A stretch of 64,000 nucleotides of DNA from a virus (Duplodnaviria > Caudoviricetes): positions 64,001 to 128,000 of IMG/VR virus record IMGVR_UViG_3300020576_004053; one strand, given 5' to 3'. This document shows, piece by piece, positions 3,001 to 52,411 of this stretch (positions are counted from its first letter, which is position 1; every line of letters begins with the position of its first letter). The notes beneath the pieces were generated by a model. The model worked only from the letters and a program-made list of their open reading frames with translations. It did no database searches and was not told where the DNA came from. The position numbers were made by a program, and so were the translations under genes.

Positions 3001-5908
3001 ATCCTACTGATGCCTGTTGTGATAGTGATGCAGAATAGCTTATATCCTGCGCAATTAATGATGCGGATACCGCAGAAATGCGTGCAGCAAGAGACGATGT
3101 AATAGAGATCGCATATGCTGCTAGCGATGCTGAATTCAACGATGCTTGCTGTGCCAACGATGCAGAATTAGAAATATCGATAATTGCTAGCGATGCAGAT
3201 GCGGCATAGAAATTGTTCGTTGTTTGTGCAAGCGATGCAGAGGTAGATACCGCTAGAGCCGCTAATGATGCTGAAGTCAGTGCCGCTTGTTGTGCTAAGG
3301 ACGAAGAATAACTTACGTCTTGAGCAACCAATGATGCCGATGCTAGCGAAATACGCTGTGCTAATGATGCCGATGTAGCAATATCATACGCCGCCAACGA
3401 GGCAGAGTATGCTGATGCCTGTTGTGATAACGACGCAGAATTAGAAACTGCATCGGCAATAATAGAGGCCGACGCAATAAACAATATATATTGCTGATAT
3501 GCTAAGGATGCGGAATACGCTACTGCCTGAGCCGCTAATGACGCCGAATAAACTGACGCCTGTTGTGCAGCCGATGCAGATACCGCAACGTCGGCAATTA
3601 CCAACGATGCCGATGTTGCCGCGATGGTTTGAGACAATGACGCAGTTATAGATACTGCATATGCCGCTAATGACGCCGAATTTAACGACGCTTGCTGTGC
3701 TAACGAGGCAGATAACGATGCAGTATTAAATGCTTGAACACTACTTGATACCAATATCAGTTGTTGTGCCAATGATGCCGATGTCGCAACTGCATGTGCC
3801 GCCAATGATGCTGAATAAATTGACGCCTGTTGTGCTAGTGATGCGGAATATGATACCTGCTGCGCCAATAATATTGACGCAGAATAGTTCAAATTGAATG
3901 ATGAGCTAACCAATGCCGCCGTTGCGGTTTCAATAGAATATGCTTGATCGAATCCAGAGCCAGAGATAAGATCCAGCACATTAAACCACGTGCTACCTCC
4001 CCCCACTTGTACAGCGAAGGTTCCACTTACCACCACATCAAAGTTAGATCCAGAATAGCTACCAACCAGTTTATCACCAAGTGAAAAAATGCTACCTGAT
4101 GCGTCGGTATTTCCCAAATAGAATGGAGTATCGATGTTACCGGGATTGCCGCCGCCCGCATAAATAGCACCACCAGACGTTGGACTATTAGATGTAATAG
4201 TTAACCCAGATCCACTTGCTCCAACAGTCAGCGTTCCATCAATACGACTATCACCGCCCTTCAAAATCGTATTACCACCATCTATATACAATGGCGCACT
4301 TTCAATAGTAACGGGTACCATATTACTATTGACATCGAACAACTCAGCCTTAAACACCACTCGTTCGAATCGTCGTCCGGTTATTGGAGTAATGATTCGA
4401 ATTTCGTCTGGATTAAACCCCGTTTCTCGCGCAGATTTGAGCGTGATATCGGAAATATACCAATCACCACTATATACGACGAAATACAACTTAGCGGTGC
4501 CATCGCGTATGCCGACTACATTTTTGGTCGAATCTAAGAAGAATTGTTGTGTTTTACCAGCCGGGATAACATATGACGCAATTTTAGTACCTAATGGATT
4601 TTGCGATGCTGATGGAAACGCAGTACCAAATACATACACATCCATCCGAGCTTCAACCGTCGAATCCTGTTTAGTACCGTATAAAGATGCGCCAAATGTA
4701 TATTCCAATCCCTTGAAAAATGATAACTCTGGGATACTGCCAATATATGCCTGTGCAACCGATGATGCTGACGCAAATGCACCGGTCGGTTGACTGATAT
4801 ACATTGAGTCCAGTAACACATCGGCGTTATAGCTAGCCGTGACACCAGTTGTAAGACCATATTGCACCCCACCAGTAACAGTACCAGCCGTCCAGTATGA
4901 ATCGATGACAGATTGACTAGTAATCAATCCCATTCGAATCGACTGATCCCCTGTGACGGAGGATTGCGTCATCAATAAATCCGTCTCTTCTAATGAAACA
5001 TCGGTTAGAAGCTGATAATTTCCCGGCTGATCGACGCTGCGTATATACAGTTTGGCCCGTGCAATATCACCGGAAAACGTCTGTAATTTTGCAATATGCA
5101 CATTTGCAAAGGATCGGACTAAATTCGTTGAAATAAATGATGGGCTTGCCAAATACCGAACTGTATAGGATGGCAGCGTCACGTTCGCCAAATATCCACC
5201 CGTACTTGCGGTAGGGATTGTATTGAGCGTGATAGTGGACGTATTGATAACATCGGTAATGGATGCCGTGAATGGAGCGCCATTTAGTGTGGTCATAAAC
5301 GGCGCGTCGACCATATCACGATTGAAGGACGCACCGGACAATACCACGGTGGCGCTTCGACCAATTAACGTTGCCGTACCGCTCGTCTGATCAACGATGC
5401 TACCAGTTACCGCATCTCGGTAAGGTGCCAATAGCTCAACGGGAGTAATTACCGGTTGCGCATATAACCGTATAGGCGTCGTGTTAGCCTTATACGGATT
5501 AATTTGGATTTTGGTAGACCATTTTACGTTATATGCACCCTTAAACTCTTTGGGTGGCACATTGCCCTGTTCATCAGTTTTAAGCTGACCTAAAATGGTT
5601 ACGGTTGCCAGCCCCGGTGCGGTATCCTTATATACTTCAATTGACACCAGCCGAGCCAATCCTTCCGTGTAATTACGAATAGGTTGACTAAATACTACAT
5701 TACCAGCGGAATCTACGATTTCAACGAGTACATCGGTATCTGCTACCAACTCGGTTGAACCGTTTATAAGGAACGCATTTTTACCACTCGTCAATACGTC
5801 GGGGACTTGTGACAGTCGAAAGTATCGCGAGGTAGGGGCCGTATCTACTATCCAAACTCTATATTTTTCTAAATTTAGCGGAAATACTGATTTCTGTAGC
5901 TTTGGCAT
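1..5908 (-). CDS. Very long tail-fibre/virion protein (partial, runs off left edge)
   Basis: ATG at 5908 (MPKLQKSVFPLNLEKYRVWIVDTAP...). The frame was open wherever spot-checked down to base 2 (...NFIKI). It is absent from the ORF track, consistent with having no stop in the window. Contains an SASL-based 11-residue repeat block and about 70-75 aa repeats (N.IKIG..P.....G.GFY.DG.GNFRVG). Confidence 0.8.
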   Translation of the reverse strand, partial: MPKLQKSVFPLNLEKYRVWIVDTAPTSRYFRLSQVPDVLTSGKNAFLINGSTELVADTDVLVEIVDSAGNVVFSQPIRNYTEGLARLVSIEVYKDTAPGLATVTILGQLKTDEQGNVPPKEFKGAYNVKWSTKIQINPYKANTTPIRLYAQPVITPVELLAPYRDAVTGSIVDQTSGTATLIGRSATVVLSGASFNRDMVDAPFMTTLNGAPFTASITDVINTSTITLNTIPTASTGGYLANVTLPSYTVRYLASPSFISTNLVRSFANVHIAKLQTFSGDIARAKLYIRSVDQPGNYQLLTDVSLEETDLLMTQSSVTGDQSIRMGLITSQSVIDSYWTAGTVTGGVQYGLTTGVTASYNADVLLDSMYISQPTGAFASASSVAQAYIGSIPELSFFKGLEYTFGASLYGTKQDSTVEARMDVYVFGTAFPSASQNPLGTKIASYVIPAGKTQQFFLDSTKNVVGIRDGTAKLYFVVYSGDWYISDITLKSARETGFNPDEIRIITPITGRRFERVVFKAELFDVNSNMVPVTIESAPLYIDGGNTILKGGDSRIDGTLTVGASGSGLTITSNSPTSGGAIYAGGGNPGNIDTPFYLGNTDASGSIFSLGDKLVGSYSGSNFDVVVSGTFAVQVGGGSTWFNVLDLISGSGFDQAYSIETATAALVSSSFNLNYSASILLAQQVSYSASLAQQASIYSASLAAHAVATSASLAQQLILVSSSVQAFNTASLSASLAQQASLNSASLAAYAVSITASLSQTIAATSASLVIADVAVSASAAQQASVYSASLAAQAVAYSASLAYQQYILFIASASIIADAVSNSASLSQQASAYSASLAAYDIATSASLAQRISLASASLVAQDVSYSSSLAQQAALTSASLAALAVSTSASLAQTTNNFYAASASLAIIDISNSASLAQQASLNSASLAAYAISITSSLAARISAVSASLIAQDISYSASLSQQASVGSASLAAFAVSTSASLAQSTTNLFTASASLAAIDISNSASLSQQASLYSASLALYDVSTSASLAQRISVASASLVAQDLSYSASLSQQASAGSASLAAFAIATSSSLAQSTTNLFAASASLAAIDISNSASLASRISIASASLVAQDLSYSASLSQQASAGSASLAAFAVATSASLAQSTTNLFSASASLAIIDISNSASLAQQAAAYSASLAAQIQSISGSSALAITTASILDAFNRIQRPQVADASKLINGLYLETSSMGFYNKAQNDWPVLINAVGQFRIANSASYTGNVNDPYSEMVGLANGAFVVRSKLLYLSASGFLLAATSSAANNVMMLGGVLSETSGSGVYMNGGGTFRAGTPSGSYIYVSPSQVRIASYQFNMDVGGMYLLGHPASGSLNVIKLGTNAANSTLISGTGFYADGDGNFRVGYTSGSTLLRDYLRFIPMSGGLDIQTTRINITASGMHIASEGTVPASNFIKIGTSPATMSFVSGTGFYADGAGNFRVGSETASLSDYLRYSPSVGLDILTKRMNITAGGMQLLSDTTIGTSNAIKVGPNPTAISFTNGAGFYVDGGGNLRVGQATTGSGVDFLRYGPSTGLDLQTSRIALIAGGIQLSGVSGTVGVGNFIKIGTTPSTMTLISGTGFYADGAGNFRVGYTSGTIQDFIRFIPASGGLDIQTTRVFITASGMNIVSEGTVAANNYIKVGGSPSLISFVSGTGVYMDGAGNFRVGENTASLSDYVRYSPSVGLDILTKRMNITAGGMQLLSDPSIASANTIKVGNSPTAITFAANTGFYVDGDGNFRVGTTTDYFRFSPSNGTDIITSRMNITAGGMQLLSDPTTPSANVIKIGSNPTAITLTSGAGVYMDGDSNFRVGNASTGSGADYIRYSKTSGLEVIASSINLLAGGISIIGVSGSTGIANTIKIGTTPSTMTLISGTGFYADGGGNIRMGYTSGTIQDFIRFIPASGGLDIQANRINITASGMHISSNPGAPVLNFIKI
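84..153. repeat. 70-bp exact direct repeat (second copy 969..1038)
   Basis: tgaatatcaagtccacc...gaggtatatccca is identical at 84-153 and 969-1038. Confidence 0.9.
698..760. repeat. 63-bp exact direct repeat (second copy 1373..1435)
   Basis: atcggacaacaactgc...atatccaaacc is identical at 698-760 and 1373-1435. Confidence 0.9.
2350..3890 (-). repeat. Degenerate 33-bp coding repeat (hendecad S-A-S-L motif every 11 aa)
   Basis: Translation e.g. SASLAQQASLN SASLAAYAISI TSSLAARISAV SASLIAQDISY SASLSQQASVG. Confidence 0.85.
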
Positions 5909-34800: not shown

Positions 34801-34814
34801 CCGAAAATGAACAA

Positions 34815-35162
34815 TGGAGGTGTTGGGAGTCGAACCCAAGTCTCAGATATACTACAACAACATCCTTCTACGTGTGTAGTCGATTTTCAATTTTCTCGAC
34901 TTATCCAAATCGACAAATGGAGCCGAGAGTATGTTGCTTGGTCTTACTACACATTCTGCAACATATCCTGTGTAGGCGTCTTGATGTCATACATTCCTTA
35001 TCCCTCAAGCGGAGGCATCGGAACGTGCTTTACTGCAAATTACGCAGCGAGAGCAAGGCGAGTGTTAGTGCCAGTTAAGTTTTTTGATAGATTTTTACGA
35101 GTTTCCATCAACTCGACACGCCAAACGTCACTTCGCAACCTGATCGAAGCCAAGGCACCCCC
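34815..35162 (-). ncRNA. ssrA: tmRNA, tag (A)GTNTRLALAA*
   Basis: 5' GGGGGUG pairs with 3' CACCUCC-A (G3.U70 Ala determinant); T-arm GGGUUCGACUCCC; tag frame GGC ACT AAC ACT CGC CTT GCT CTC GCT GCG TAA at 35072-35040 after UUAACU; 348 nt. Confidence 0.95.
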
Positions 35163-38596: not shown

Positions 38597-38670
38597 AGAT
38601 CACGACGGGAATTGAACCCGCAACCGGTCGGGATTAGAGGCCCGCTGCTCTACCGTTGAGCTACATGATC
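38597..38670 (-). tRNA. Atypical tRNA with 8-nt anticodon loop CCUCUAAU (amber-suppressor-like, CUA)
   Basis: GATCATG/CGTGATC acceptor, normal D and T arms, CGGG-CCTCTAAT-CCCG anticodon arm. Confidence 0.75.
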
Positions 38671-43906: not shown

Positions 43907-44389
43907 TCACGCAGTCGTCAGTTTACGCGTACGGGCGAATGCATACGGATGACCGGATGCCGATGCCCAACTTGCCTTCGCCTGACCCCGCGTGACGTTC
44001 GAATACTGCAACGTCGGACCAATACCACCAGCCCCACGCACTTCGTAATCTGCGCAGACGTTGTCGTGATCGATGATCATTTTAATCATCGTATCCACCA
44101 GATTATCATCCAGTGTCGCCACGTCATCAGTCACATCATCGTCGTCTGTATCGACAGCCTGAATCGGAGCGAGTAGTGAATATGACCGGTAGGTGCCATT
44201 ATCGTTCGTCGTGATATCCGCGTCCTCTGTCACCACTTCCTGCATGAAATCGCGGACCTGACTCTGCTTGGCCCAGAATCCTTTCGACCGCAGTACATTC
44301 TTGATGTCCAGATTGGTCGTGGTTCCGTTGAGCGTCATCAGTGCACGAGCAATCTCACGCACTTCCCGTTTCGTAGCGATCTGTTGCAT
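43907..44389 (-). CDS. Hypothetical protein coupled to PARP (possible winged-helix N-terminus)
   Basis: TGA/ATG overlap with the PARP stop. Confidence 0.6.
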   Translation of the reverse strand: MQQIATKREVREIARALMTLNGTTTNLDIKNVLRSKGFWAKQSQVRDFMQEVVTEDADITTNDNGTYRSYSLLAPIQAVDTDDDDVTDDVATLDDNLVDTMIKMIIDHDNVCADYEVRGAGGIGPTLQYSNVTRGQAKASWASASGHPYAFARTRKLTTA

Positions 44390-45621
44390 CAGGTTCCTAC
44401 CTCGACAAGATATTTGATGGTGGACTGCTTATCTGAATATACGATGTATTCGTTGTTAATCAAGTCCGCACCACCCTTGGCGAAGACCGAATCGTAGTTG
44501 CCTTTCTTCCGCAAAACCTGTTCCGAGTAGGAATAACACTCTGAACTATGATGCAGGATAGAAAACTGCTTCCCGACATGCACATCCATCATGGCAAGAA
44601 ACGCCGTTGACGATCCACCACCGGTCCATCGCGCCCCACGTAGAGACGTATACCCTGCCGACTTCCGATACTTATCCGCGAAGTAGATCCCGTGTCCAAA
44701 CATCGATCCAGACAACACCGCATTGGACGGACGGATCTTGAGTCCAGATTCCAGAATAGAAATCCAGTTTTCGTTTCGTGACCCGTGCCAGAACAGTTCC
44801 GTCTTTGGCACTGCTGCCGTCGCCACATGGCCTTCATACTTATTACGCGTCATCGGATGTGTCACCACATAGACCGATCTCAACTCTCGCGCATCACCGG
44901 CCATATGCTTGCGCACGATATCGATATCTTGCGGAGACGCCAACGTGACGAGAAGACCAAGCGCATCCAAGATCGTTTTGATCGGTGCGTCATCATCTTC
45001 GTCTACATCAGCACCAGCCAGTTTTACCTGACCGGCCATAACGTCCAACGTCTTCTGTTCCCCATCGATAATCGTACGGAATTCTTGCAGCACCGCATCG
45101 CTGACCACGGAATTCTTCAACAAATGATCCTGTACCTTGGCCATCCGACGTGGAATCACCATATACAGTTCGACCAACAACTTATTGATCGGATCTTTGT
45201 CCGTGCCGAGTGCAGCCAACGCGGTAAGCTGATCGACAAACCCCTGCGCCTCGTTGACCTGTGCAGCGGTAACGGCATCAGAGGAAATCGTATAGTTTTC
45301 CGTTACTGACCGTCGCGCATAGGTCAACAGCGTATTGAACAGTTTGTCGACCGCTGGCTCTGGGATAGGCTGATATCCGGACTTTTTGGTCGTCGCCTTC
45401 ACCAGATGAGTGACATCTTTATACCCCTTCTTAACTTTTTCCCGATAAATGCTGTCCCACTTTGACATCGGATATGATTTCGTAGCCAAAGGACCACCCA
45501 CTCGTCCCCATTCTGCTAGAAACTCCCCGTTACCGGAAGGCGTCATTGAATACACCTTATTATTGTTTTCCGTCGTCACCATAATGAGACGGACCGGCGA
45601 AGTTACGGTAGAAGTAGACAT
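44389..45621 (-). CDS. WGR-PARP regulatory-PARP catalytic domain ADP-ribosyltransferase
   Basis: NNNKVY...EWGRVG (WGR); LYMVIPR (regulatory); WHGS, MFGHGIYFAD, NEYIVY (H-Y-E triad). Confidence 0.9.
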   Translation of the reverse strand: MSTSTVTSPVRLIMVTTENNNKVYSMTPSGNGEFLAEWGRVGGPLATKSYPMSKWDSIYREKVKKGYKDVTHLVKATTKKSGYQPIPEPAVDKLFNTLLTYARRSVTENYTISSDAVTAAQVNEAQGFVDQLTALAALGTDKDPINKLLVELYMVIPRRMAKVQDHLLKNSVVSDAVLQEFRTIIDGEQKTLDVMAGQVKLAGADVDEDDDAPIKTILDALGLLVTLASPQDIDIVRKHMAGDARELRSVYVVTHPMTRNKYEGHVATAAVPKTELFWHGSRNENWISILESGLKIRPSNAVLSGSMFGHGIYFADKYRKSAGYTSLRGARWTGGGSSTAFLAMMDVHVGKQFSILHHSSECYSYSEQVLRKKGNYDSVFAKGGADLINNEYIVYSDKQSTIKYLVEVGT

Positions 45622-45627
45622 AATATG

Positions 45628-45656
45628 AGTTTAATCGTCTGATTCTTTACTGTCAA
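45628..45656 (-). promoter_or_regulatory. sigma70-type promoter; PARP mRNA probably leaderless
   Basis: TTGACA-17nt-TAAACT followed by only 6 nt before the ATG. Confidence 0.7.
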
Positions 45657-45711
45657 CCCCTAGGTACCGGAATGTCGGGGATCTAAATAAACATATACAT
45701 AATATTTCATA

Positions 45712-45784
45712 AGCACGTGGCGAGATTCGAACTCGCAGTCTCCACCTTGGCAAGGTGGCACATTAACCGTTATGTTACACGTGC
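45712..45784 (-). tRNA. tRNA-Gly(GCC)
   Basis: CCACC-TTGCCAA-GGTGG. Confidence 0.9.
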
Positions 45785-45787
45785 GAA

Positions 45788-45922
45788 AACTACGAGCAAA
45801 TTTAAATGCGCACCGAATGTAACCACCATCCTTCTAGATGATTACGTTCACAGAATTGTTACATTCTGTGATTGGGGTCGAACCAATTATATCCGTTAAC
45901 GATACACGTTCGTCTCGTAGCT
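45788..45922 (-). ncRNA. YrlA-type Y RNA (Ro stem + T arm + loop-closed acceptor stem + D-like arm)
   Basis: 5' AGCUACGAG-A-CGAA pairs with 3' UUUG-CUCGUAGUU; ATTGG-TTCGACC-CCAAT T arm; CACAGAAT-gtaaca-ATTCTGTG; lies 450 nt from the Ro60 gene. Confidence 0.75.
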
Positions 45923-45932
45923 AATATAAATA

Positions 45933-46248
45933 TAGGGGATCATGATAAAAAGGTGTCATGCGGATTTTTGTATGCAGTATATTGTGACGTACTGCATCGC
46001 AACGTCTCGCGACGATTTGTATGGTAGTAAGCTTATAATACCGCGAATATTATTTCTTACGAATCCATACCCTGCCCTCTGCAATAATCCGTACTCACGG
46101 TGTTGGTATACACATGCAAATGGGTGGAGTCTAACCACCGACCATCCTGTTTATACGGCAACGTCTTTCGACTTGGTGTTGCATTGCCACCCCTGTTCAT
46201 CGCTAATTAGACTTAGATAACGCATAACGGCGTATCTATGATCCCCTA
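45933..46248 (-). ncRNA. Candidate 316-nt structured RNA
   Basis: Terminal TAGGGGATCAT/ATGATCCCCTA; internal GTC-GAAA-GAC, GTC-GCGA-GAC and TGCAGTA..TACTGCA hairpins; no credible ORF. Confidence 0.5.
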
Positions 46249-46263
46249 AATTGTCAAAAAGCA

Positions 46264-46373
46264 AAAACTGTGTAGGGTGGACGCGGCACAAGATATTGCT
46301 ACCCGTGCGTATTACTGCGAATAATACGCCAACGTACCACAGCTACGCCCCCACATCCACCCTACCCAGTTTT
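46264..46373 (-). ncRNA. Candidate structured RNA/3' element right after the Ro60 stop
   Basis: AAAACTG.GTAGGGTGGA / TCCACCCTAC.CAGTTTT closing stem with two internal hairpins. Confidence 0.45.
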
Positions 46374-48066
46374 AGAAATCTCCACGGATGAAATCGGACA
46401 TAATGGATGGTGCAGCCGAATCGAACCCGACCACATCCATCATTCCAAAGTCGTTAGGATCTGCGATAGTAAAACCGTTAGAAACTAAACCAACAACTAC
46501 CGACTTTGCTGGAATGCCCATTTCCTTCCGATACTTGTTCAACGCCTGTACTGGCTGCATCCGACCCGCATACGTCTCGTTGTCAGTATACACCACAAAC
46601 GCGTCAAGCTCAACCTTGTTCTTCAATGCCCACAGGAACGGCAGTGAGCAATCCGTACCACCGAAATCCAACCCTTCGGTCAAGTTCACCACATCGTCCA
46701 ACCGCTGACGGTGTGAGAACGGCAATTCGGTAATACCATCACCTGACCGTGCTGACGTGAACCCAGACCGCTTACCGCCACGGTTAAACGAATATCCACC
46801 ACTCGTGAAACCTGCGATCACATAATCCTTTTCCGTGCGCATCGTCATCATTGCCATCGCCGCCGACGCCATGCGCGGAGACAACCCGATCACGCCACCC
46901 ACCTCACCACCCGTCATTGAACCGGACACGTCTAGGAACAGGCCGATACGCTTTCCCGTAGGAATCACGTTCTGGAATGCCACATAGAACAGTTCGTCCA
47001 ATGCATCGATGATGGACGGGGTTGGGGTCCACACGTTGTTACCACGCTGACCACGACCGGCACGATACGTCAAGAGCGCCGTCAACACCTGAATTGGGTG
47101 AATACGATCCTTCTTCACCTTCTCCACATCGCCCAACTTCGCGATGACATCCTTCGCACCTGACGACATCGGCCCGATCAAACCAACCCGAGTCATCGTC
47201 GCCAAGTTACGAACCAGTGCCGTCGTGCCCATGTGTGGCAGCAACGATTCCCAAACTGCCTTCGTGTTCAGCAACTCCGTAGGAATCACTTCACGTGGCA
47301 ACTTGTGGGCTTCGATCAACTTCACCGCAGCCGTCACATCCTTTTCCGTCAACTTCTTGATTTCATCCACTGCCGCAATGAAATCTGCCACGTCGGTATC
47401 GATGACCAATTCCTTGGCACCCTTACCCGTCACGTCTGCAAACAGCGCATCGTGCGTATCCGTTGCGGGCTTGACGTGCGCCAACCGCAATACGTCCTTG
47501 TGCGTCCAGCCATCACGGTTGGCATACTTCACCAACTGATGAGCCAACTGCATCGGCGTCTTCTCGTTGTACCAAGCCGCAAAGGCACGACGGATACCAC
47601 GTCCCCACGTCGCCATGCCGTTGATGTAGTCGGCAAGGTGGAGCACATGCGTTCCGATACGAGCGACCTTCGGAAGCGCAATATATGCCGCTCGCTTGGC
47701 CTCGTCCGTACCATGCGCCATCACCATCGCCAACGCAAACAATGCAGGATCGTTCTTCGGCGCACGACCGGCTTCCGACAGTTCAACGATGCGGTTTACC
47801 ACACGCACGCCATCTGCCGCGATTGCACGCATCACTGCCGCTGCGTTTTCCTTGGTCAACTTCTGTTCAGAAGCGTAATACGATCCACCTTCTGAACCAA
47901 GAATCAGGAATCGATCCAGTCGTGAAAAATCCGACACCGAGAAGACCACGCCACCAGCCGAGTTCTTCACCATATCCTTCTCACGACCCTTGATTGCCTG
48001 AGTCTGCGGGGTTACTGCATTGGCACGAACTCGCGTCTGTGCCGTCTTCGAATACGTCTTTGCCAT
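46372..48066 (-). CDS. rsr: Ro60/Rsr RNA-binding protein (TROVE + vWA)
   Basis: NSAGG.VF, RLDRFLILGSEGGSYY, KYANRDGWTHKDVLRLAH, MIDAS DVSGSM, GGTDCSLP, YTDNET, VVGFD; GGAGG RBS before ATG 48066. Confidence 0.95.
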   Translation of the reverse strand: MAKTYSKTAQTRVRANAVTPQTQAIKGREKDMVKNSAGGVVFSVSDFSRLDRFLILGSEGGSYYASEQKLTKENAAAVMRAIAADGVRVVNRIVELSEAGRAPKNDPALFALAMVMAHGTDEAKRAAYIALPKVARIGTHVLHLADYINGMATWGRGIRRAFAAWYNEKTPMQLAHQLVKYANRDGWTHKDVLRLAHVKPATDTHDALFADVTGKGAKELVIDTDVADFIAAVDEIKKLTEKDVTAAVKLIEAHKLPREVIPTELLNTKAVWESLLPHMGTTALVRNLATMTRVGLIGPMSSGAKDVIAKLGDVEKVKKDRIHPIQVLTALLTYRAGRGQRGNNVWTPTPSIIDALDELFYVAFQNVIPTGKRIGLFLDVSGSMTGGEVGGVIGLSPRMASAAMAMMTMRTEKDYVIAGFTSGGYSFNRGGKRSGFTSARSGDGITELPFSHRQRLDDVVNLTEGLDFGGTDCSLPFLWALKNKVELDAFVVYTDNETYAGRMQPVQALNKYRKEMGIPAKSVVVGLVSNGFTIADPNDFGMMDVVGFDSAAPSIMSDFIRGDF

Positions 48067-48120
48067 TGTTACGTACCTCCCAATCAAGGGGGTAAAGGGT
48101 TTGTACTACGTTGATACTGC

Positions 48121-48149
48121 AACCTACACACTATTATGTAATCTGTCAA
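48121..48149 (-). promoter_or_regulatory. sigma70-type promoter of rsr
   Basis: TTGACA-17nt-TAGGTT. Confidence 0.65.
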
Positions 48150-48150
48150 G

Positions 48151-48269
48151 TGGAGATGATGGGAATCGAACCCAAAGCAGTCTTTTGTTCAGAAAGATAA
48201 CGCTCCAAAAGTCGTACCGTTGCCGGTCAAGTTATATTAGAACGGTTTTACCGCGTAACCTACATCCCC
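48151..48269 (-). ncRNA. tRNA-Y hybrid RNA 1 (Ala-like acceptor)
   Basis: GGGGATG/CATCTCC-A (G3.U70), D and T arms; anticodon region replaced by CGTTCTAA..CTTGACCG-GCAA-CGGTACGA..TTGGAGCG-TTATC. Confidence 0.75.
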
Positions 48270-48286
48270 TTGATTTTCCTACGATA

Positions 48287-48751
48287 CTACTCCGCCGATC
48301 CTGCACGATAATTGTTCGGATTGCACCATGTCAAGGTCTGCGTGTGACAATTAGGACAAAGCCATCGCAGATTTTCTTTTCGGTTATCGCGATAATTACC
48401 GTTTATATGATCAAGCTGTAGCTTCAATTCCATCCCGCGATGTTCACCTTTGTTTTCACACCATGCACAACAGTACGGAATCGCACGTTTTGCAAAAATG
48501 CGCAAAGTAGCCTGTGCTACACGCTTCGAATCTGTAAACACATCCTCATCGGATAGCCTCTGCCGTCTTTGCCCACGTGTCAAAAAATGGCTCGTATCTA
48601 TCCCCAATATAGCGATGCGCTCTTTTACTCGCCGGTAATTACTTGTACCATCAGAAAGACCGAGTGCATACAACACGTCTCTGACGGTTTTCTGTCCGTC
48701 GACTGCACTAATCAGTTGTTCGTCTGACCACTTTCTCTTTGAACCTCGCAT
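48287..48751 (-). CDS. HNH homing endonuclease
   Basis: CAWC...LQLDHINGN..DNRKENLRWLCPNCH.QT. Confidence 0.9.
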   Translation of the reverse strand: MRGSKRKWSDEQLISAVDGQKTVRDVLYALGLSDGTSNYRRVKERIAILGIDTSHFLTRGQRRQRLSDEDVFTDSKRVAQATLRIFAKRAIPYCCAWCENKGEHRGMELKLQLDHINGNYRDNRKENLRWLCPNCHTQTLTWCNPNNYRAGSAE

Positions 48752-48832
48752 TTATTCTCTCCTTAAAATAGTGAGAATAAATAGTACGATTCAAATTCAA
48801 ACGACAAGTTAGTTCGAACCTATGCCCGTTTT

Positions 48833-49084
48833 TTACCACGACTTTAAATTCGAAAACTCTTCCACCGTCATATCACCCACTAACACCTCAAACGCGGCAT
48901 AATCAAACTGCTCTCGTAGAAATGCATACAACGATCTACCCGAGTCTTCCGTGAACTCTTCCTTTGTCGCTTCCATCACCAGCTTAAACACTTTTTCTAT
49001 GTTTGTGGTATGGAACCATCCTTGGCGAACTATCCGCTTAAAGATATAACGCAACACCCAGATTTGAAATTTTGATATCATCAT
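48833..49084 (-). CDS. Hypothetical protein
   Basis: 83 aa ORF coupled to the upstream gene. Confidence 0.5.
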   Translation of the reverse strand: MMISKFQIWVLRYIFKRIVRQGWFHTTNIEKVFKLVMEATKEEFTEDSGRSLYAFLREQFDYAAFEVLVGDMTVEEFSNLKSW

Positions 49085-49563
49085 AGTTGGATCGATGCGA
49101 CCGGTGTTGCAGTATCAGGATAAAAGATAGCTTGTTTATAGCCTCGCACAAGCCCCCGTTTTACTCTATACTTTCGAATGAGGAAATCCGCCCGACGAAG
49201 TACATTCAACTCTTGGTCGTCGCTCCACCATGCATATAATTGGGAAAGTGAATCAAACCCAAATACCGTCGTTTGCCATGCCATCGGATGGTTATATACC
49301 CATTCTCTGAGCAATGGATCTGCCGCTATTCCCGGTCGTTTCCACTTAAATCCAGCATGTACCCTTTTGTTATGTTTAGACGGCAACTGATTGAACGGTT
49401 CATGGGTTATTGTAATATCCATGAATTTCCGAGCATCATCTGAATCTATCGTCGATGCAAACGTACAATTCGTTGCCCATGCATACGGACCCACTTTCAC
49501 ACACGTATGCCGTAACTGAATCATACGATGTTCTACCCGATATACACTTCCAGATTCTAACAT
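49081..49563 (-). CDS. Hypothetical protein
   Basis: VYRVEH...GPY...FGFDSLSQL..W; start trimmed to after the RNA gene. Confidence 0.55.
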   Translation of the reverse strand: MLESGSVYRVEHRMIQLRHTCVKVGPYAWATNCTFASTIDSDDARKFMDITITHEPFNQLPSKHNKRVHAGFKWKRPGIAADPLLREWVYNHPMAWQTTVFGFDSLSQLYAWWSDDQELNVLRRADFLIRKYRVKRGLVRGYKQAIFYPDTATPVASIQL

Positions 49564-49565
49564 AG

Positions 49566-49693
49566 TGCCAGCGGAGGGAATTGAACCCCCGACCACCCCT
49601 GTTTGATAGGATAACGAATCTCAGGGCGTACCGTTGCCGGTCAAGGTTGTAGAAATTCGGTTTTTAGGTGCTCTACCACTGAGCTACACTGGC
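49566..49693 (-). ncRNA. tRNA-Y hybrid RNA 2
   Basis: Textbook GCCAGTG-TA-GCTCAGTGGTAGAGC...GGGGGTTCAATTCCCTC-CGCTGGC-A; anticodon arm holds CGAATTTC..CTTGACCG-GCAA-CGGTACG..GAGATTCG-TTATC. Confidence 0.8.
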
Positions 49694-49801
49694 GTTGAAC
49701 TACATATATAGCGACCATCTTTCCCAAACGATCACCCTACTCCCCATCCACATATATTGTCATGTTCGGATGGACGTTCGCATGGGACAAACTTTCCTTC
49801 A

Positions 49802-49960
49802 TCAGCACGCTTCACAGTCGTAGGCTTGCTTCACCTGTTTTGTTTCGACCGGACAATCATCATCGCGATATTTGCACCCATGCCATACGCAACAATGGGT
49901 CACATGGACGCCGATCTCATACGGATAATCGTCCTCTACATCTTTCTGTTCGTCTGACAT
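49802..49960 (-). CDS. Small Cys/His-rich protein (52 aa)
   Basis: H.THCC.WHGCKY....CPV...CEAC; below ORF-track cutoff. Confidence 0.45.
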   Translation of the reverse strand: MSDEQKDVEDDYPYEIGVHVTHCCVWHGCKYRDDDCPVETKQVKQAYDCEAC

Positions 49961-49963
49961 AAG

Positions 49964-50091
49964 TTGGTCGGGTAGGAGTCGAACCTACAACGGGCCTGTT
50001 TGAGTTAACGATAATCTACGTCTCAGGTTACCCCGAGCAAAGGATCGATCACCATTGGAGACAGGTGTGTTTACCATTTCACCACCGACCA
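49964..50091 (-). ncRNA. tRNA-Y hybrid RNA 3 (tRNA-Trp(CCA) with 54-nt insert at 37/38)
   Basis: TGGTCGG/CCGACCA acceptor; CCTGT-CTCCAA-[insert with TTTGCTC-GGG-GTAA-CCT-GAGACG]-A-ACAGG. Confidence 0.8.
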
Positions 50092-50095
50092 TCAG

Positions 50096-50161
50096 TGCGG
50101 TCAAAGAGATAACCAAGGGGGTTTTATCTTAAAAGGATAACCCTCAGTTGTTCGTACCGCA
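50096..50161 (-). ncRNA. Minimal (66-nt) Y RNA, canonical topology
   Basis: 5' UGCGGU-A-CGAA pairs with 3' UUUGACCGCA; GUUAUC occurs twice inside. Confidence 0.7.
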
Positions 50162-50233
50162 GAACAACAATCTACAACAACTTTGGTTACAGCGCAAGTA
50201 CCGGAGACGAGAAAGTGCAGACTTAGATATGTG

Positions 50234-50938
50234 TTAGTTTGACACAACGTCTTTTACACTCGGCCACTTACCCGTATCATAATAGAGCCGACGCTGTTTC
50301 GCACGAGTGGAATTCTTGTTTCGACTCTTATATGTATCCGTTTGAGAATGACAGTTCGGACACAACAATCTCAAATTATCAGGATGGTTGTTGTCAGAGT
50401 TGCCATCTACGTGATCTAACTGTAAAGTCAAAGGTTTGTGATTGTGCACAGATCCCTGAGAACACCATGCACATGCGTTTCCACGACAATCTATCAACGC
50501 CGCCTTCAACACAGACAGAGAATTTGGATTAAGAGTTCCTGCTAAAAATCGTTCAATTCTAACACGTCTATTATTTGCACCACGACACTTTTTAGAACAA
50601 TACCGCATATAACGACTACAGCTATTCCCACACTCTAAACATCTAACGGGATCACGACTAGCATCACCGGTACGATTATTAGCTTTACCACATTTCAATG
50701 AGCAGCACTTTTTATGTTTATTATTACGAAATATATGTTCTTTAACATATTGATCAAACGAAACGCCACATCGTATGCAATTTAAAACTACGTGAATTAA
50801 CGGCTTAGTTTTCGTTTGTCTATGTTTTTCAATAGTTGCGTTTCTTTTTGGATTTTTGACACAATTAGTAACATGTGCACCAAACGCACGTTTAACATCA
50901 AATTCAAACTCACCATCACAATGTTTACATATTTGCAT
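50234..50938 (-). CDS. HNH homing endonuclease
   Basis: Cys-rich N-terminus; LQLDHVDGNSDNN..DNLRLLCPNCHSQT. Confidence 0.9.
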   Translation of the reverse strand: MQICKHCDGEFEFDVKRAFGAHVTNCVKNPKRNATIEKHRQTKTKPLIHVVLNCIRCGVSFDQYVKEHIFRNNKHKKCCSLKCGKANNRTGDASRDPVRCLECGNSCSRYMRYCSKKCRGANNRRVRIERFLAGTLNPNSLSVLKAALIDCRGNACAWCSQGSVHNHKPLTLQLDHVDGNSDNNHPDNLRLLCPNCHSQTDTYKSRNKNSTRAKQRRLYYDTGKWPSVKDVVSN

Positions 50939-51012
50939 AAAAATACCCCCGTTACAAATAAGTAGGGAGGTATGGAGCGAAAAACGAGATTTGATGTAAA
51001 AGGTACTAATTA

Positions 51013-51086
51013 AGTGGATGACGGGAGTCGAACCCGCAAGAATTCAGTTTGGAAAACTGACGCTTTACCGTATAAGCTTCATCCAC
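51013..51086 (-). tRNA. tRNA-Gly(TCC)
   Basis: TCAGT-TTTCCAA-ACTGA. Confidence 0.9.
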
Positions 51087-51270
51087 ATTGAGCCTAGCTG
51101 TACATTGTTCTTTTATATCCCGCTTTTCCATTAGCGGCCCAATCAAACGGCTTGTCTAACCTCTAGGCTCATCCCCATCAAAAATTCCATAGGGTTCTGG
51201 CGACTCTACCGTTCACTTAATATATAGCGACGATCTGCTATTTTATCAACCTTGACTTCCGATAAAGTGT

Positions 51271-51425
51271 TAGATACGAGTTGTGAGCTTTCCACCCACA
51301 CGCTGGTTTGCCTACACTGCGTAGTAGTCGCCGCACTGTTGCCAGTCAGGTAGCCACAGACCATCGATATAGTGTCTTAACCATCAAGGGATTCGGGCAC
51401 TATATCTGTTGTTGTCTCGTATCTA
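51271..51425 (-). ncRNA. Candidate multi-stem RNA with internal Ro-type hairpin
   Basis: TAGATACGAG/CTCGTATCTA closing stem; GATATAGTG/CACTATATC; CTGACTG-GCAA-CAGTGCG. Confidence 0.55.
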
Positions 51426-51501
51426 TGCGTAAGGTGGGAGTCGAACCCACAAACCACTGATTTTGAGTCAGCGAGGTATTTCCAGTTCCCGTCACTCACG
51501 C
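51426..51501 (-). tRNA. tRNA-Leu(CAA), short variable arm
   Basis: GCTGA-CTCAAAA-TCAGT; 5-nt variable region. Confidence 0.8.
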
Positions 51502-51959
51502 GTACTTTTGGGAAAGCCTAACCGTAACTTATCCCGTTCCATCTGTAACTTATCAGCCTCACTATACAGTGTCAAGTGAGCGATCTCATCAGCGTTCTGC
51601 TTGTCCACATACTCGTATATCACCTCTTTCCGACTCTGACTATAGACATTCCATCCAGTAGTAAAATACCACGTTGGATGGCTGATCAGTTTAAATGGAA
51701 TAAACGTGATAACATCTACTATCCACGCAGCACCGGTACGTATTAATATAGCTATGATTACAAACCACCAGAACAGTATTACCGTTAACACCGATCCTTC
51801 AACGGTATATGTCATGTTCGGTACATAATCTCCATGATCAGACCATCCTAACACACGACGTTCACCATCTATTTCTACAACCGGCATACGCTTCCACCAT
51901 ATCACAAAAAACGTCATCGCACATACTAAATACGCTAAAACCCCGGCTGCGAGTTTCAC
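51492..51959 (-). CDS. Membrane protein
   Basis: Two hydrophobic segments; GTG start. Confidence 0.55.
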   Translation of the reverse strand: MKLAAGVLAYLVCAMTFFVIWWKRMPVVEIDGERRVLGWSDHGDYVPNMTYTVEGSVLTVILFWWFVIIAILIRTGAAWIVDVITFIPFKLISHPTWYFTTGWNVYSQSRKEVIYEYVDKQNADEIAHLTLYSEADKLQMERDKLRLGFPKSTRE

Positions 51960-52411
51960 CAGTCCGATCCTCCCCCGCCACCGCTGAATCCACTATCTGA
52001 TCCACCAAAATCCGTAGAGGATGACGACGAATCTGATGGGGATGACGGTGCACTGAAATCAATAAACGGAATAACGGTGTTGATATCCGTTAAAGGTGAC
52101 CGTCGTGTGATATCATCGTCATCATTCTTCTTAGATGACGGTAGATCGCTCACAATATCATCATCCTGTGGTTTTGTTGGACGCGATACCGTTGGAGTAG
52201 ATGTTTTCGTCGGTGCCGCAGGACGTACGGTACGAACCGGGGCCGTGAACGAACGATTCATCTCGGCCATCCGCTTCTCATAATCTTCCCGACGACGTAA
52301 TTCTGCCCGTCGTTCCCGTTCAGCATCTCGGATCTCTATGATATGTTGAACTGCGATCATAATACATCCGAAGATCAACACAACTAATGCGGCGGCTAGA
52401 AGGTAGTTCAC
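51956..52411 (-). CDS. Membrane-anchored protein with Gly/Ser tail
   Basis: N-terminal TM; C-terminal DFGGSDSGFSGGGGGSDW. Confidence 0.65.
   Translation of the reverse strand: MNYLLAAALVVLIFGCIMIAVQHIIEIRDAERERRAELRRREDYEKRMAEMNRSFTAPVRTVRPAAPTKTSTPTVSRPTKPQDDDIVSDLPSSKKNDDDDITRRSPLTDINTVIPFIDFSAPSSPSDSSSSSTDFGGSDSGFSGGGGGSDW

What the first reader, a model, noticed from the sequence alone, without database searches (positions are those of the whole stretch)
48151..50091. tRNA-Y hybrids: tRNAs whose anticodon arm carries a Ro60-binding helix
Seen: three genes upstream of the Ro60/Rsr gene (48151-48269, 49566-49693, 49964-50091) have open acceptor stems with discriminator A, plus D and T arms. 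The anticodon position holds a 50-65 nt hairpin ending in UUG-ACC-G-GCAA-C-GGU-A-CG (copies 1 and 2 share an identical 19-mer) or UUG-CUC-GGG-GUAA-CCU-GAG-A-CG (copy 3, compensatory changes). Established: Ro60 binds a bulged helix formed by 5' GGUCCGA and 3' UUGAC(C/U) strands. Bacterial YrlA RNAs are circularly permuted tRNA mimics whose acceptor stem is closed by a loop. Inference: these RNAs are the opposite permutation, with the Ro helix loop-closed and the acceptor stem free. They could be matured like tRNA, receive CCA and possibly be aminoacylated (copy 1 has the G3.U70 alanine determinant). That would tether Ro60 to synthetases, EF-Tu or the ribosome, or let them act as decoys for anticodon nucleases. 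I am not aware of this topology being described; it may be a missing link between tRNA and YrlA.
Basis: partly seen in the sequence, partly recalled or inferred. Interest (0 to 1): 0.95.

Follow-up and report, generated by a model that had tools for sequence, protein, structure and literature searches.

The report
tRNA-shaped Y RNAs beside phage Ro60
Next to its own Ro60 gene this large phage encodes three RNAs built like normal tRNAs with an open acceptor end, each carrying an extra arm that is a loop-closed copy of the Ro60-docking helix of Y RNAs. They are an unpermuted counterpart of the known YrlA RNAs, I found them widely beside Ro60 genes, and I found no paper describing them.

Summary
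Three minus-strand genes (48151-48269, 49566-49693, 49964-50091) upstream of a TROVE+vWA Ro60 gene have 7-bp open acceptor stems, D and T arms and discriminator A. Each carries a 40-48 nt arm ending in UUG-helix-GNRA-helix-A-CG, the Y RNA Ro60-binding helix with its two strands joined by a loop.

One correction: copies 1 and 2 also keep a 5-bp anticodon-like stem with a 7-nt loop. Their Y arm sits on the 5' side of that stem. Only copy 3 has the arm inside the anticodon loop.

A covariance model found 91 such RNAs in 55 Ro60 loci:
- 93% of base-pair cells are paired, against 38-49% in slid controls.
- All 127 long matches lie on the Ro60 strand, and 88% lie within 1 kb of Ro60.
- In genomes picked by the RNA motif alone, 13 of 13 assessable loci hold Ro60.

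Lineage-specific helix variants are shared with ordinary Y RNAs of the same genome.

These RNAs hold the modules of YrlA in tRNA order, a topology absent from the papers I could read. Ro60 binding, tRNA-like maturation and charging are inferred, not shown. This scan has noted similar hybrids in other genomes.

Verdict: new variant of a known kind; interest 0.8.

The parts
46372..48087 (-). Ro60/Rsr gene. The ORF runs from TTG at 48087; the database protein of 564 aa would start at the ATG at 48066.
   Evidence: Pfam TROVE 2.7e-38 and vWA_Ro60 6.9e-56. Thousands of homologues, the closest at 93% identity.
48151..48269 (-). Hybrid copy 1 (119 nt). In order: acceptor GGGGAUG/CAUCUCC with G3.U70 and A73, D arm, Y arm, anticodon-like arm, T arm.
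   Evidence: R1 65.5 bits. Rfam tmRNA-end match 27.7 bits. Sequence read.
48203..48242 (-). Y arm of copy 1. Second stem UUCUAA/UUGGAG, an internal loop, then the Ro helix UUG-ACCG-GCAA-CGGU-A-CG at 48213-48230.
   Evidence: Read from the sequence. The same helix is in the family alignment.
48181..48197 (-). Anticodon-like arm of copy 1: UCUUU-CUGAACA-AAAGA.
   Evidence: Parser result.
49566..49693 (-). Hybrid copy 2 (128 nt), the best match to the family model.
   Evidence: Rfam tRNA 47.9 bits. R1 95 bits. Ortholog in L010 at 4134-4262.
49615..49659 (-). Y arm of copy 2. Second stem CGAAUUUC/GAGAUUCG, with the Ro helix hairpin at 49627-49644.
   Evidence: Minimum-energy fold, alignment A2, pair counts.
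49598..49610 (-). Anticodon-like hairpin of copy 2: CCU-AUCAAAC-AGG. The flanking CC/GG completes a 5-bp stem.
   Evidence: The L010 ortholog has AUCAUAC, so the triplet is not conserved.
49964..50091 (-). Hybrid copy 3 (128 nt). The anticodon stem CCUGU/ACAGG is intact and the Y arm sits inside its loop.
   Evidence: Rfam tRNA 46.5 bits. R1 50.3 bits. Orthologs in L010, L011 and L013.
50008..50055 (-). Y arm of copy 3. Second stem AUGGUGAUC/GAUUAUCGU, with the Ro helix UUG-CUCGGG-GUAA-CCUGAG-A-CG at 50019-50040.
   Evidence: Centroid fold. Covarying stems in L011 and L013.
50096..50161 (-). Ordinary-topology small Y RNA. Its ends pair as GCGGU-A-CGAA/UUUGACCGC, and it has an internal GGGUUAUC hairpin.
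   Evidence: Fold -21.5 kcal/mol, z = -3.2. Conserved in L010 and L011. It carries the same GGU-A-CGA variant as the hybrids.

Best explanation
The three genes encode Y RNAs in tRNA topology: partner RNAs of the phage's own Ro60.

Anatomy. Each is a complete tRNA-shaped body with a 7-bp open acceptor stem, D arm and T arm. Copies 1 and 2 also have an anticodon-like arm. An added arm consists of a second stem, an internal loop and the conserved bulged Ro60-binding helix. In ordinary Y RNAs the two strands of that helix are the RNA's 5' and 3' ends; here a GNRA loop joins them.

Proposed steps:
1. The RNAs are transcribed with the tRNA array and the Ro60 gene (inferred).
2. They are cut out by the host's tRNA-processing enzymes, RNase P at the 5' end and host 3'-end trimming enzymes, and receive CCA from the host enzyme (inferred).
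3. Ro60 docks on the loop-closed helix (inferred from sequence evidence).
4. The tRNA body serves, as proposed for YrlA, as the handle for a tRNA-recognising partner. It thereby ties Ro60, and any exonuclease working with it, to tRNA metabolism during infection, or competes with tRNAs for host enzymes such as anticodon nucleases (speculative).

They are not decoding tRNAs.
For: Shown by tools:
- tRNA body and insertion.
- A family of 91 members in 55 Ro60 loci, with 93.2% of cells paired against 38-49% when partners are slid. The covariation score is 0.652 against 0.198 shuffled. All 8 pairs of the second stem and all 7 acceptor pairs show double changes.
- All 127 long matches lie on the Ro60 strand and 88% lie within 1 kb of Ro60, against 31% of plain tRNA-size matches.
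- In prokaryote genomes picked by the RNA motif alone, 18 of 80 loci hold hybrids. Thirteen of these have Ro60 in the 8-kb locus and the other five hybrids lie at a locus edge. Ro60 is in 1 of the 62 motif-only loci.
- Acceptor strands pair within a unit (6.9 of 7; 117 of 128 perfect) better than between neighbouring units (5.3 of 7).
- Lineage-specific helix variants are shared by ordinary Y RNAs and hybrids of the same genome: GGU-A-CGA in the window, L010, L011 and L013; GGGC-UGA in L150; GGGC-CGA elsewhere.
- The helix and GUUAUC motifs match the consensus of Rfam's Y RNA and stem-bulge RNA models.
- No terminator-like site lies in 46200-51700.

From papers:
- M. smegmatis YrlA is cut by RNase P and receives CCA in vivo (PMC4201824).
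- A decoy role of the YrlA tRNA-like domain against an anticodon nuclease has been proposed (PMC7790460).
Against: - No transcript, binding or processing data exist for any member.
- The alignment used for the pair counts was fitted to the model, which favours the model's structure.
- The bulged base is A here, not the usual C.
- CCA is not encoded in the three copies. In locus L150 the plain tRNAs encode CCA (10 of 11) but its four hybrids do not, so tRNA-like 3' ends are not assured.
- No CCA-adding enzyme or RtcB gene was found in the 143-kb record, which is about 79% complete.
- About half of the Ro60 loci sampled show no hybrid.
Confidence: 0.75

Rival explanations
1. They are intron-containing tRNA genes. 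The Y-like arm is removed by cleavage and ligation to give ordinary decoding tRNAs, and perhaps a released Y-like hairpin.
For:
- In 62 of 130 family members, removing the arm would leave an exact 5-bp anticodon stem and a 7-nt loop. U33 is present in 90% and a purine at position 37 in 90%.
- Copy 3 could be read as CU-CCA-A or CU...CUC-AA.
Against: - The insertion point varies: 26/27, 27/28, 28/29, inside the loop, or replacing the whole arm.
- About half of the members have no anticodon arm to restore.
- Triplets differ between close orthologs. Copy 2 has CAA where L010 has CAU, and the candidate anticodons of copy 3 are lost in L010.
- Serine-type triplets occur on bodies with short variable loops.
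- The arm itself is conserved and covaries like a functional RNA.
- The host is bacterial, since the phage encodes a tmRNA. From general knowledge, short protein-spliced tRNA introns are not known in bacteria.
- No RtcB gene is in the record.
Confidence: 0.06
2. They are ordinary permuted YrlA RNAs read in the wrong register. The real transcripts would run from the Ro strand of one unit to the Ro strand of the next.
For: - Rfam's YrlA model weakly matches junctions of tandem units in other loci (36.3 and 31 bits against a cut-off of 69).
- Acceptor strands of neighbouring units are often complementary (12 of 54 pairs at 7 of 7).
Against: - In the window, copies 1 and 2 are about 1.3 kb apart with three ORFs between them.
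- The Ro helix is closed by loops of only 4 nt.
- Pairing within a unit is far better than between units.
- Several loci hold a single unit.
- Rfam's YrlA model finds nothing in the window region even at E up to 5.
Confidence: 0.04
3. They are decaying tRNA pseudogenes that picked up a Y RNA fragment and have no function of their own.
For: - Homing-endonuclease-like genes sit among them.
- Copy 1 differs strongly from its positional counterpart in the 93% relative L010.
Against: - Acceptor, D, T and Y-arm helices are kept by compensatory changes across 91 members from phages and several bacterial phyla.
- Position and strand relative to Ro60 are fixed.
Confidence: 0.03

Closest known systems
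YrlA (Y RNA-like A; Rfam RF02553; Chen et al. 2014, PMC4201824; Wang et al. 2018, 10.1101/312249)
   Same: - Encoded beside Ro60/Rsr.
- Same modules: the Ro helix strands, a second stem, GUUAYC, a small 'V' hairpin, a 2-bp stub, an A-rich linker, tRNA-like D and T arms and an acceptor stem.
   Different: - Circular order. YrlA has its ends in the Ro helix, its T arm 5' of its D arm, and a loop-closed acceptor stem.
- Here the ends are in the acceptor stem and the Ro helix is loop-closed.
- Rfam's YrlA model does not match.
[quoted passage not shown]
   Same: A Ro60-bound tRNA-like RNA with an opened 7-bp acceptor stem and a CCA end.
   Different: That form is a two-piece RNA made from a permuted precursor. 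The RNAs here are one continuous chain in tRNA order.
Animal Y RNAs and nematode stem-bulge RNAs (Rfam RF00019, RF01656)
   Same: The bulged helix GGU-N-CGA/UUGACC and the downstream GUUAUC motif (consensus printed). The window lineage even keeps GGU.../...ACC.
   Different: - Those RNAs have their ends in the helix and no tRNA body.
- The bulged base is C there and A here.
D. radiodurans Yrn1 (PMC4201824)
   Same: A Y RNA with tRNA-like features, in which the D-like element precedes the T arm.
   Different: In Yrn1 the Ro helix takes the acceptor position and an anticodon-like arm lies between the D-like element and the T arm. Here the acceptor is a true open tRNA acceptor.
Thermus phage phiLo Yrl1/Yrl2 with phage Ro60 (PMC12135203)
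   Same: Phage-encoded Ro60 with phage-encoded partner RNAs upstream. Binding and a complex with PNPase were shown there.
   Different: Yrl1 and Yrl2 have the ordinary 5'-3' stem topology and no tRNA body.
tmRNA
   Same: Copy 1 shares the GGGG... acceptor with G3.U70 and A73 and the T arm.
   Different: Copy 1 has no mRNA-like part and no pseudoknots. The phage has a separate true tmRNA at 34812-35162.

Membership tests
YrlA (RF02553) | Encoded within a few kb of a Ro60/Rsr gene | tested here: met
   The copies lie 63 nt to 2 kb upstream of Ro60 on the same strand.
YrlA (RF02553) | Ro60-binding helix with a conserved CGA-containing strand (GNCGAA motif) | tested here: met
   GGU-A-CG(A) pairs with UUGACC. 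It matches the genome's own ordinary Y RNA. Binding itself was not tested.
YrlA (RF02553) | tRNA-like D and T arms with tRNA tertiary signature bases | tested here: met
   Rfam tRNA matches. U8, G18G19 and the T loop were read from the sequence.
YrlA (RF02553) | Ends in the Ro helix, T arm 5' of D arm, acceptor stem closed by a loop | tested here: not met
   The order is acceptor 5' strand, D arm, Y arm, T arm, acceptor 3' strand. The Ro helix is closed by GCAA or GUAA.
YrlA (RF02553) | Match to the Rfam model at its gathering score | tested here: not met
   No RF02553 match at E up to 5 in 45500-52000.
tRNA (RF00005) | Cloverleaf with a 7-bp acceptor stem, D and T arms; Rfam gathering score | tested here: met
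   Copies 2 and 3 score 47.9 and 46.5 bits against a cut-off of 29. Copy 1 matches only through the tmRNA model.
tRNA (RF00005) | Uninterrupted anticodon arm and an anticodon conserved among orthologs | tested here: not met
   The arm is interrupted or replaced by a 40-48 nt Y arm. Copy 2 has CAA where L010 has CAU, and the candidate triplets of copy 3 are lost in L010.
tRNA (RF00005) | Aminoacylation and use in decoding | not testable with these tools
   Needs charging assays. G3.U70 with A73 is present in copy 1 only, and G3.U70 occurs in 16 of 91 family members.
Y RNA / stem-bulge RNA (RF00019, RF01656) | The 5' and 3' ends pair to form the bulged Ro-binding stem | tested here: not met
   The strands are joined by a tetraloop. 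There are no Rfam matches for the three copies. The neighbouring RNA at 50096-50161 does have this topology.
Intron-containing tRNA | Insert at a fixed position whose removal restores a functional, conserved anticodon arm | tested here: not met
   Insert positions vary, and about half of the family members have no arm to restore.

The most novel reading that the evidence does not exclude
These are CCA-ended Y RNAs that can be charged. Because they are true tRNA-topology molecules, many with an anticodon-like loop, they would let a phage Ro60 particle plug directly into the tRNA world. They could be handled by RNase P, the CCA enzyme, a synthetase (AlaRS for copy 1) or EF-Tu. Alternatively they could act as baits or sensors for host anticodon nucleases.

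They would also be the ancestral form from which permuted YrlA arose, by tandem duplication of a hybrid followed by loss of the outer halves.
Probability: 0.25. Interest if true: 0.9.

Novelty: new variant of a known kind. Interest (0 to 1): 0.8.

Why it matters
What the tRNA-like half of bacterial Y RNAs is for has been open since 2014.

- **New candidate partners.** A natural version with a free acceptor end, and in half the family a full anticodon-like arm, makes partners testable that the closed, permuted YrlA seemed to exclude: RNase P, the CCA enzyme, synthetases, EF-Tu and anticodon nucleases.
- **Origin of YrlA.** It offers a concrete route to YrlA. A tandem pair of such hybrids already contains a YrlA in its middle, and Rfam's YrlA model weakly recognises natural tandem junctions.
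- **Annotation.** tRNA finders skip these genes or call them intron-containing tRNAs with arbitrary anticodons. The family is common beside Ro60 in large phages and in several bacterial phyla.

Tried and rejected
- **Exact 18-mer of the hairpin in IMG/VR:** four matches, all chance hits in coding sequence reading LTGNGT.
- **BLAST against GenBank phages:** the locus, copy 2 and a consensus-like hybrid gave no relative, only a tRNA-Thr fragment. I found no cultured phage with a clear hybrid. Bxz1 and Cece have ordinary YrlA. Weak long matches in Streptomyces and Gordonia phages were not resolved.
- **Encoded CCA in hybrids versus plain tRNAs of the same locus:** inconclusive. My parser was imprecise, r = 0.64 rests on two atypical loci, and L150 argues against a link.
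- **Promoter scan:** not above chance.
- **Genome-wide motif scan:** the number of matches is close to chance expectation. Only 18 of 80 loci were real hybrids, and the rest were set aside.
- **Six Ro60 loci without hybrids:** no Rfam match at all, so their partner RNAs remain unknown.
- **Papers not held:** Sim et al. 2020, Sim and Wolin 2018, Burroughs and Aravind 2016. A description there cannot be excluded.
- **Rejected readings:** intron-containing tRNA, mis-registered YrlA and pseudogene; see the rival explanations.
Full report
**Setting.** The window is bases 64001-128000 of a 143-kb IMG/VR virus record. Its minus strand carries a tmRNA, at least 16 ordinary tRNA genes and an ORF at 46372-48087. 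That ORF has TROVE and Ro60-type vWA domains, so it is a phage Ro60/Rsr. A PARP-domain ORF lies one tRNA gene beyond it.

**The observation.**
- Rfam's tRNA model matches 49566-49693 and 49964-50091 over its full length, with insertions of 69 and 56 nt. 48148-48269 matches the tRNA-like ends of the tmRNA model.
- Read on the minus strand, all three have fully paired 7-bp acceptor stems, U8, G18G19, UUCRAnY T loops and discriminator A.
- Copy 1 has G3.U70.
- The 19-mer CUUGACCGGCAACGGUACG is shared by copies 1 and 2.
- Copy 3 has UUG-CUCGGG-GUAA-CCUGAG-A-CG.

**What the insert is.**
- The hairpin is the Y RNA Ro-binding helix with its strands joined. The consensus of Rfam's Y RNA and stem-bulge RNA models, printed, reads 5' ...GGUCCGGAG...UGGGUUAUC... 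and 3' ...ACUUGACCG.
- Here CUUGACCG is linked by GCAA to CGGU-A-CG, followed by a stem strand and CGUUAUC. The insert is thus a circularly permuted Y RNA stem: a second stem, an internal loop and a bulged helix.
- An ordinary Y RNA with the same unusual A bulge lies at 50096-50161(-), 4 nt upstream of copy 3. Its ends pair as GCGGU-A-CGAA with UUUGACCGC, and it folds with z = -3.2.

**Anatomy, refined.**
- Copy 3 has an intact anticodon stem (CCUGU/ACAGG) with the Y arm inside its loop.
- Copies 1 and 2 keep a whole anticodon-like arm 3' of the Y arm. In copy 1 it is UCUUU-CUGAACA-AAAGA. In copy 2 it is CC|CCU-AUCAAAC-AGG|GG.
- In copy 1 the Y arm is inserted between the D arm and the anticodon stem. 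In copy 2 it sits in the 5' strand of that stem.
- Across the family, 62 of 130 units have such a 5-bp stem plus 7-nt loop. U33 is present in 90%, a purine at position 37 in 90%, and A or C at position 38 in 97%.
- In shuffled controls such an arm is found in 9% of units, with U33 in 24% of those.
- The triplets are diverse (28 kinds) and differ between close orthologs. The loop mimics an anticodon loop but does not specify a codon.

**Relatives.**
- The Ro60 protein has close homologues (93%, 69%, about 60% identity). Their contigs are large tRNA-rich phages that carry one to four such RNAs just upstream of Ro60.
- I built model R1 from 34 members and searched about 170 Ro60 loci from IMG/VR and metagenomes.
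- On 91 members from 55 loci, 93.2% of pair cells are standard pairs, against 38-49% when partners are slid by 1-3 columns. The covariation score is 0.652 against 0.198 in shuffles.
- Every acceptor pair and every pair of the second stem shows double changes. The Ro helix is mostly conserved, with some compensatory change.
- Caveat: the alignment was fitted to the model.

**Linkage to Ro60.**
- All 127 long matches are on the Ro60 strand. 88% lie within 1 kb of the gene, mostly upstream, against 31% of plain tRNA-size matches. At least 53 of 110 loci with 1-kb flanks hold one.
- As a test not selected on the protein, I scanned one genome per prokaryote species for TTGCCCG..CGGGCCGA..GGTTA.
- Of the 80 loci returned, 18 hold R1 hybrids. 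They come from metagenome-assembled genomes of Chloroflexota, Myxococcota, Gemmatimonadota and Armatimonadota.
- Thirteen of the 18 have Ro60 within the 8-kb locus. In the other five the hybrid lies at the locus edge, so Ro60 could not be assessed. Only 1 of the 62 remaining loci has Ro60.
- In the window's own genome the only strong long matches are the three copies.

**Evidence that Ro60 is the partner (inferred).** Variants of the helix follow the genome, not the RNA class:
- GGU-A-CGA in both the ordinary Y RNAs and the hybrids of the window, L010, L011 and L013. L011 also shares a UUU-for-UUG change in both classes.
- GGGC-UGA in both classes in L150.
- GGGC-CGA in both classes in L245, L193 and L216, and in the ordinary Y RNAs of L007, which has a permuted YrlA instead of hybrids.

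This is the pattern expected if both RNA classes co-evolve with one protein.

**Relation to YrlA.**
- True YrlA RNAs in L007, Bxz1 and Microbacterium phage Cece contain the same modules in the order: Ro 5' strand, second stem, UUAYC, small hairpin, stub, variable loop, T arm, closed acceptor, D arm, stub, A-rich linker, second stem, Ro 3' strand.
- The hybrids are the same circle opened at the acceptor instead of at the Ro helix.
- The literature I could read describes YrlA as a circularly permuted tRNA with a closed acceptor stem, possibly derived from a dimeric tRNA transcript (10.1101/312249).
- That literature notes that only the M. smegmatis RNA is opened, by RNase P, and then given CCA (PMC4201824).
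- I found no description of a one-piece, tRNA-order form.
- Natural tandem hybrids are weakly recognised by Rfam's YrlA model across their junctions (36.3 bits). Neighbouring units often have mutually complementary acceptor strands. This makes a duplication route from hybrid to YrlA plausible, but no direction was established.

**Rivals.**
- *Intron-containing tRNA.* This is contradicted by the variable insertion points, by members with no anticodon arm, by non-conserved triplets and by the covarying arm.
- *Mis-registered YrlA.* This is excluded in the window by the 4-nt closing loops, by the ORFs between copies and by the stronger pairing within units.
- *Pseudogene.* This is contradicted by the covariation and the fixed synteny.

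**Function.**
- No data exist. I commit to Ro60 binding through the loop-closed helix (about 0.8) and excision by the tRNA-processing machinery from an array transcript (about 0.7; no terminator-like site lies in 46200-51700).
- The tRNA body would be a handle or decoy for a tRNA-recognising factor. That idea has been voiced for YrlA (PMC7790460).
- Charging is possible for copy 1 (G3.U70 with A73) but is not a family trait (16 of 91).
- The record encodes neither a CCA enzyme nor RtcB.

**Earlier notes of this scan.** Notes from other genomes describe tRNA-Y hybrids in a crAss-like phage, a giant virus, another phage and a huge phage. They agree with this reading but are not independent evidence.

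Noticed in passing
window 50096-50161 (-): An ordinary-topology small Y RNA lies directly 5' of hybrid copy 3. It carries the same A-bulged Ro helix and a GGGUUAUC hairpin. It is conserved in L010 and L011.
   Followed up: yes
window 51276-51425 (-): A structured region of about 150 nt between tRNA-Leu(CAA) and tRNA-Gly(UCC), closed by the 10-bp pairing UAGAUACGAG/CUCGUAUCUA. It contains a Ro-like hairpin, CUGACUG-GCAA-CAGU-G-CGG, but no GUUAUC motif and no tRNA body. Its fold is not better than shuffles (z = -0.8).
   Followed up: partly
window 44389-45621 (-): A PARP catalytic-domain protein (Pfam 4.7e-23) sits one tRNA gene away from Ro60. L011 also carries a PARP-domain gene, and L010 has an unassigned 414-aa gene beyond Ro60 and tRNA-Gly in the same position as the window's PARP ORF. 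In addition, L011 carries Macro, NADAR, RF-1, PTH2 and RNase T genes, and L013 carries a Tpt1-like gene, PTH2 and RNase T.
   Followed up: no
window 48287-48751, 48833-49596 and 50234-50938 (-): An HNH endonuclease-like ORF and three unassigned ORFs, one of them cysteine-rich, are interspersed among the hybrids. This suggests that homing elements shuffle this array.
   Followed up: no
window 38597-38670 (-): A tRNA gene (Rfam 50.9 bits) for which ARAGORN cannot assign an anticodon. Its anticodon loop has an abnormal length and is reported as '(ct)'.
   Followed up: no
G000:C1:136617-136765 (-), outside the window (locus L304): A 149-nt tRNA-shaped RNA with acceptor GCUCUUG/CAAGAGC, a good T arm and a different insert of about 75 nt that contains CCGG...CCGGUCGAA. 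It matches R1 weakly (22.5 bits).
   Followed up: partly
L101, L111, L125, L150, L196, L243 (related loci): Arrays of three to five hybrids, sometimes only 1-10 nt apart. They often lie beside small ordinary Y RNAs that match Rfam's nematode stem-bulge RNA model.
   Followed up: partly
L016, L019, L020, L023, L024, L026: Ro60 loci with no hybrid and no Rfam match of any kind. Their partner RNAs are unknown.
   Followed up: partly
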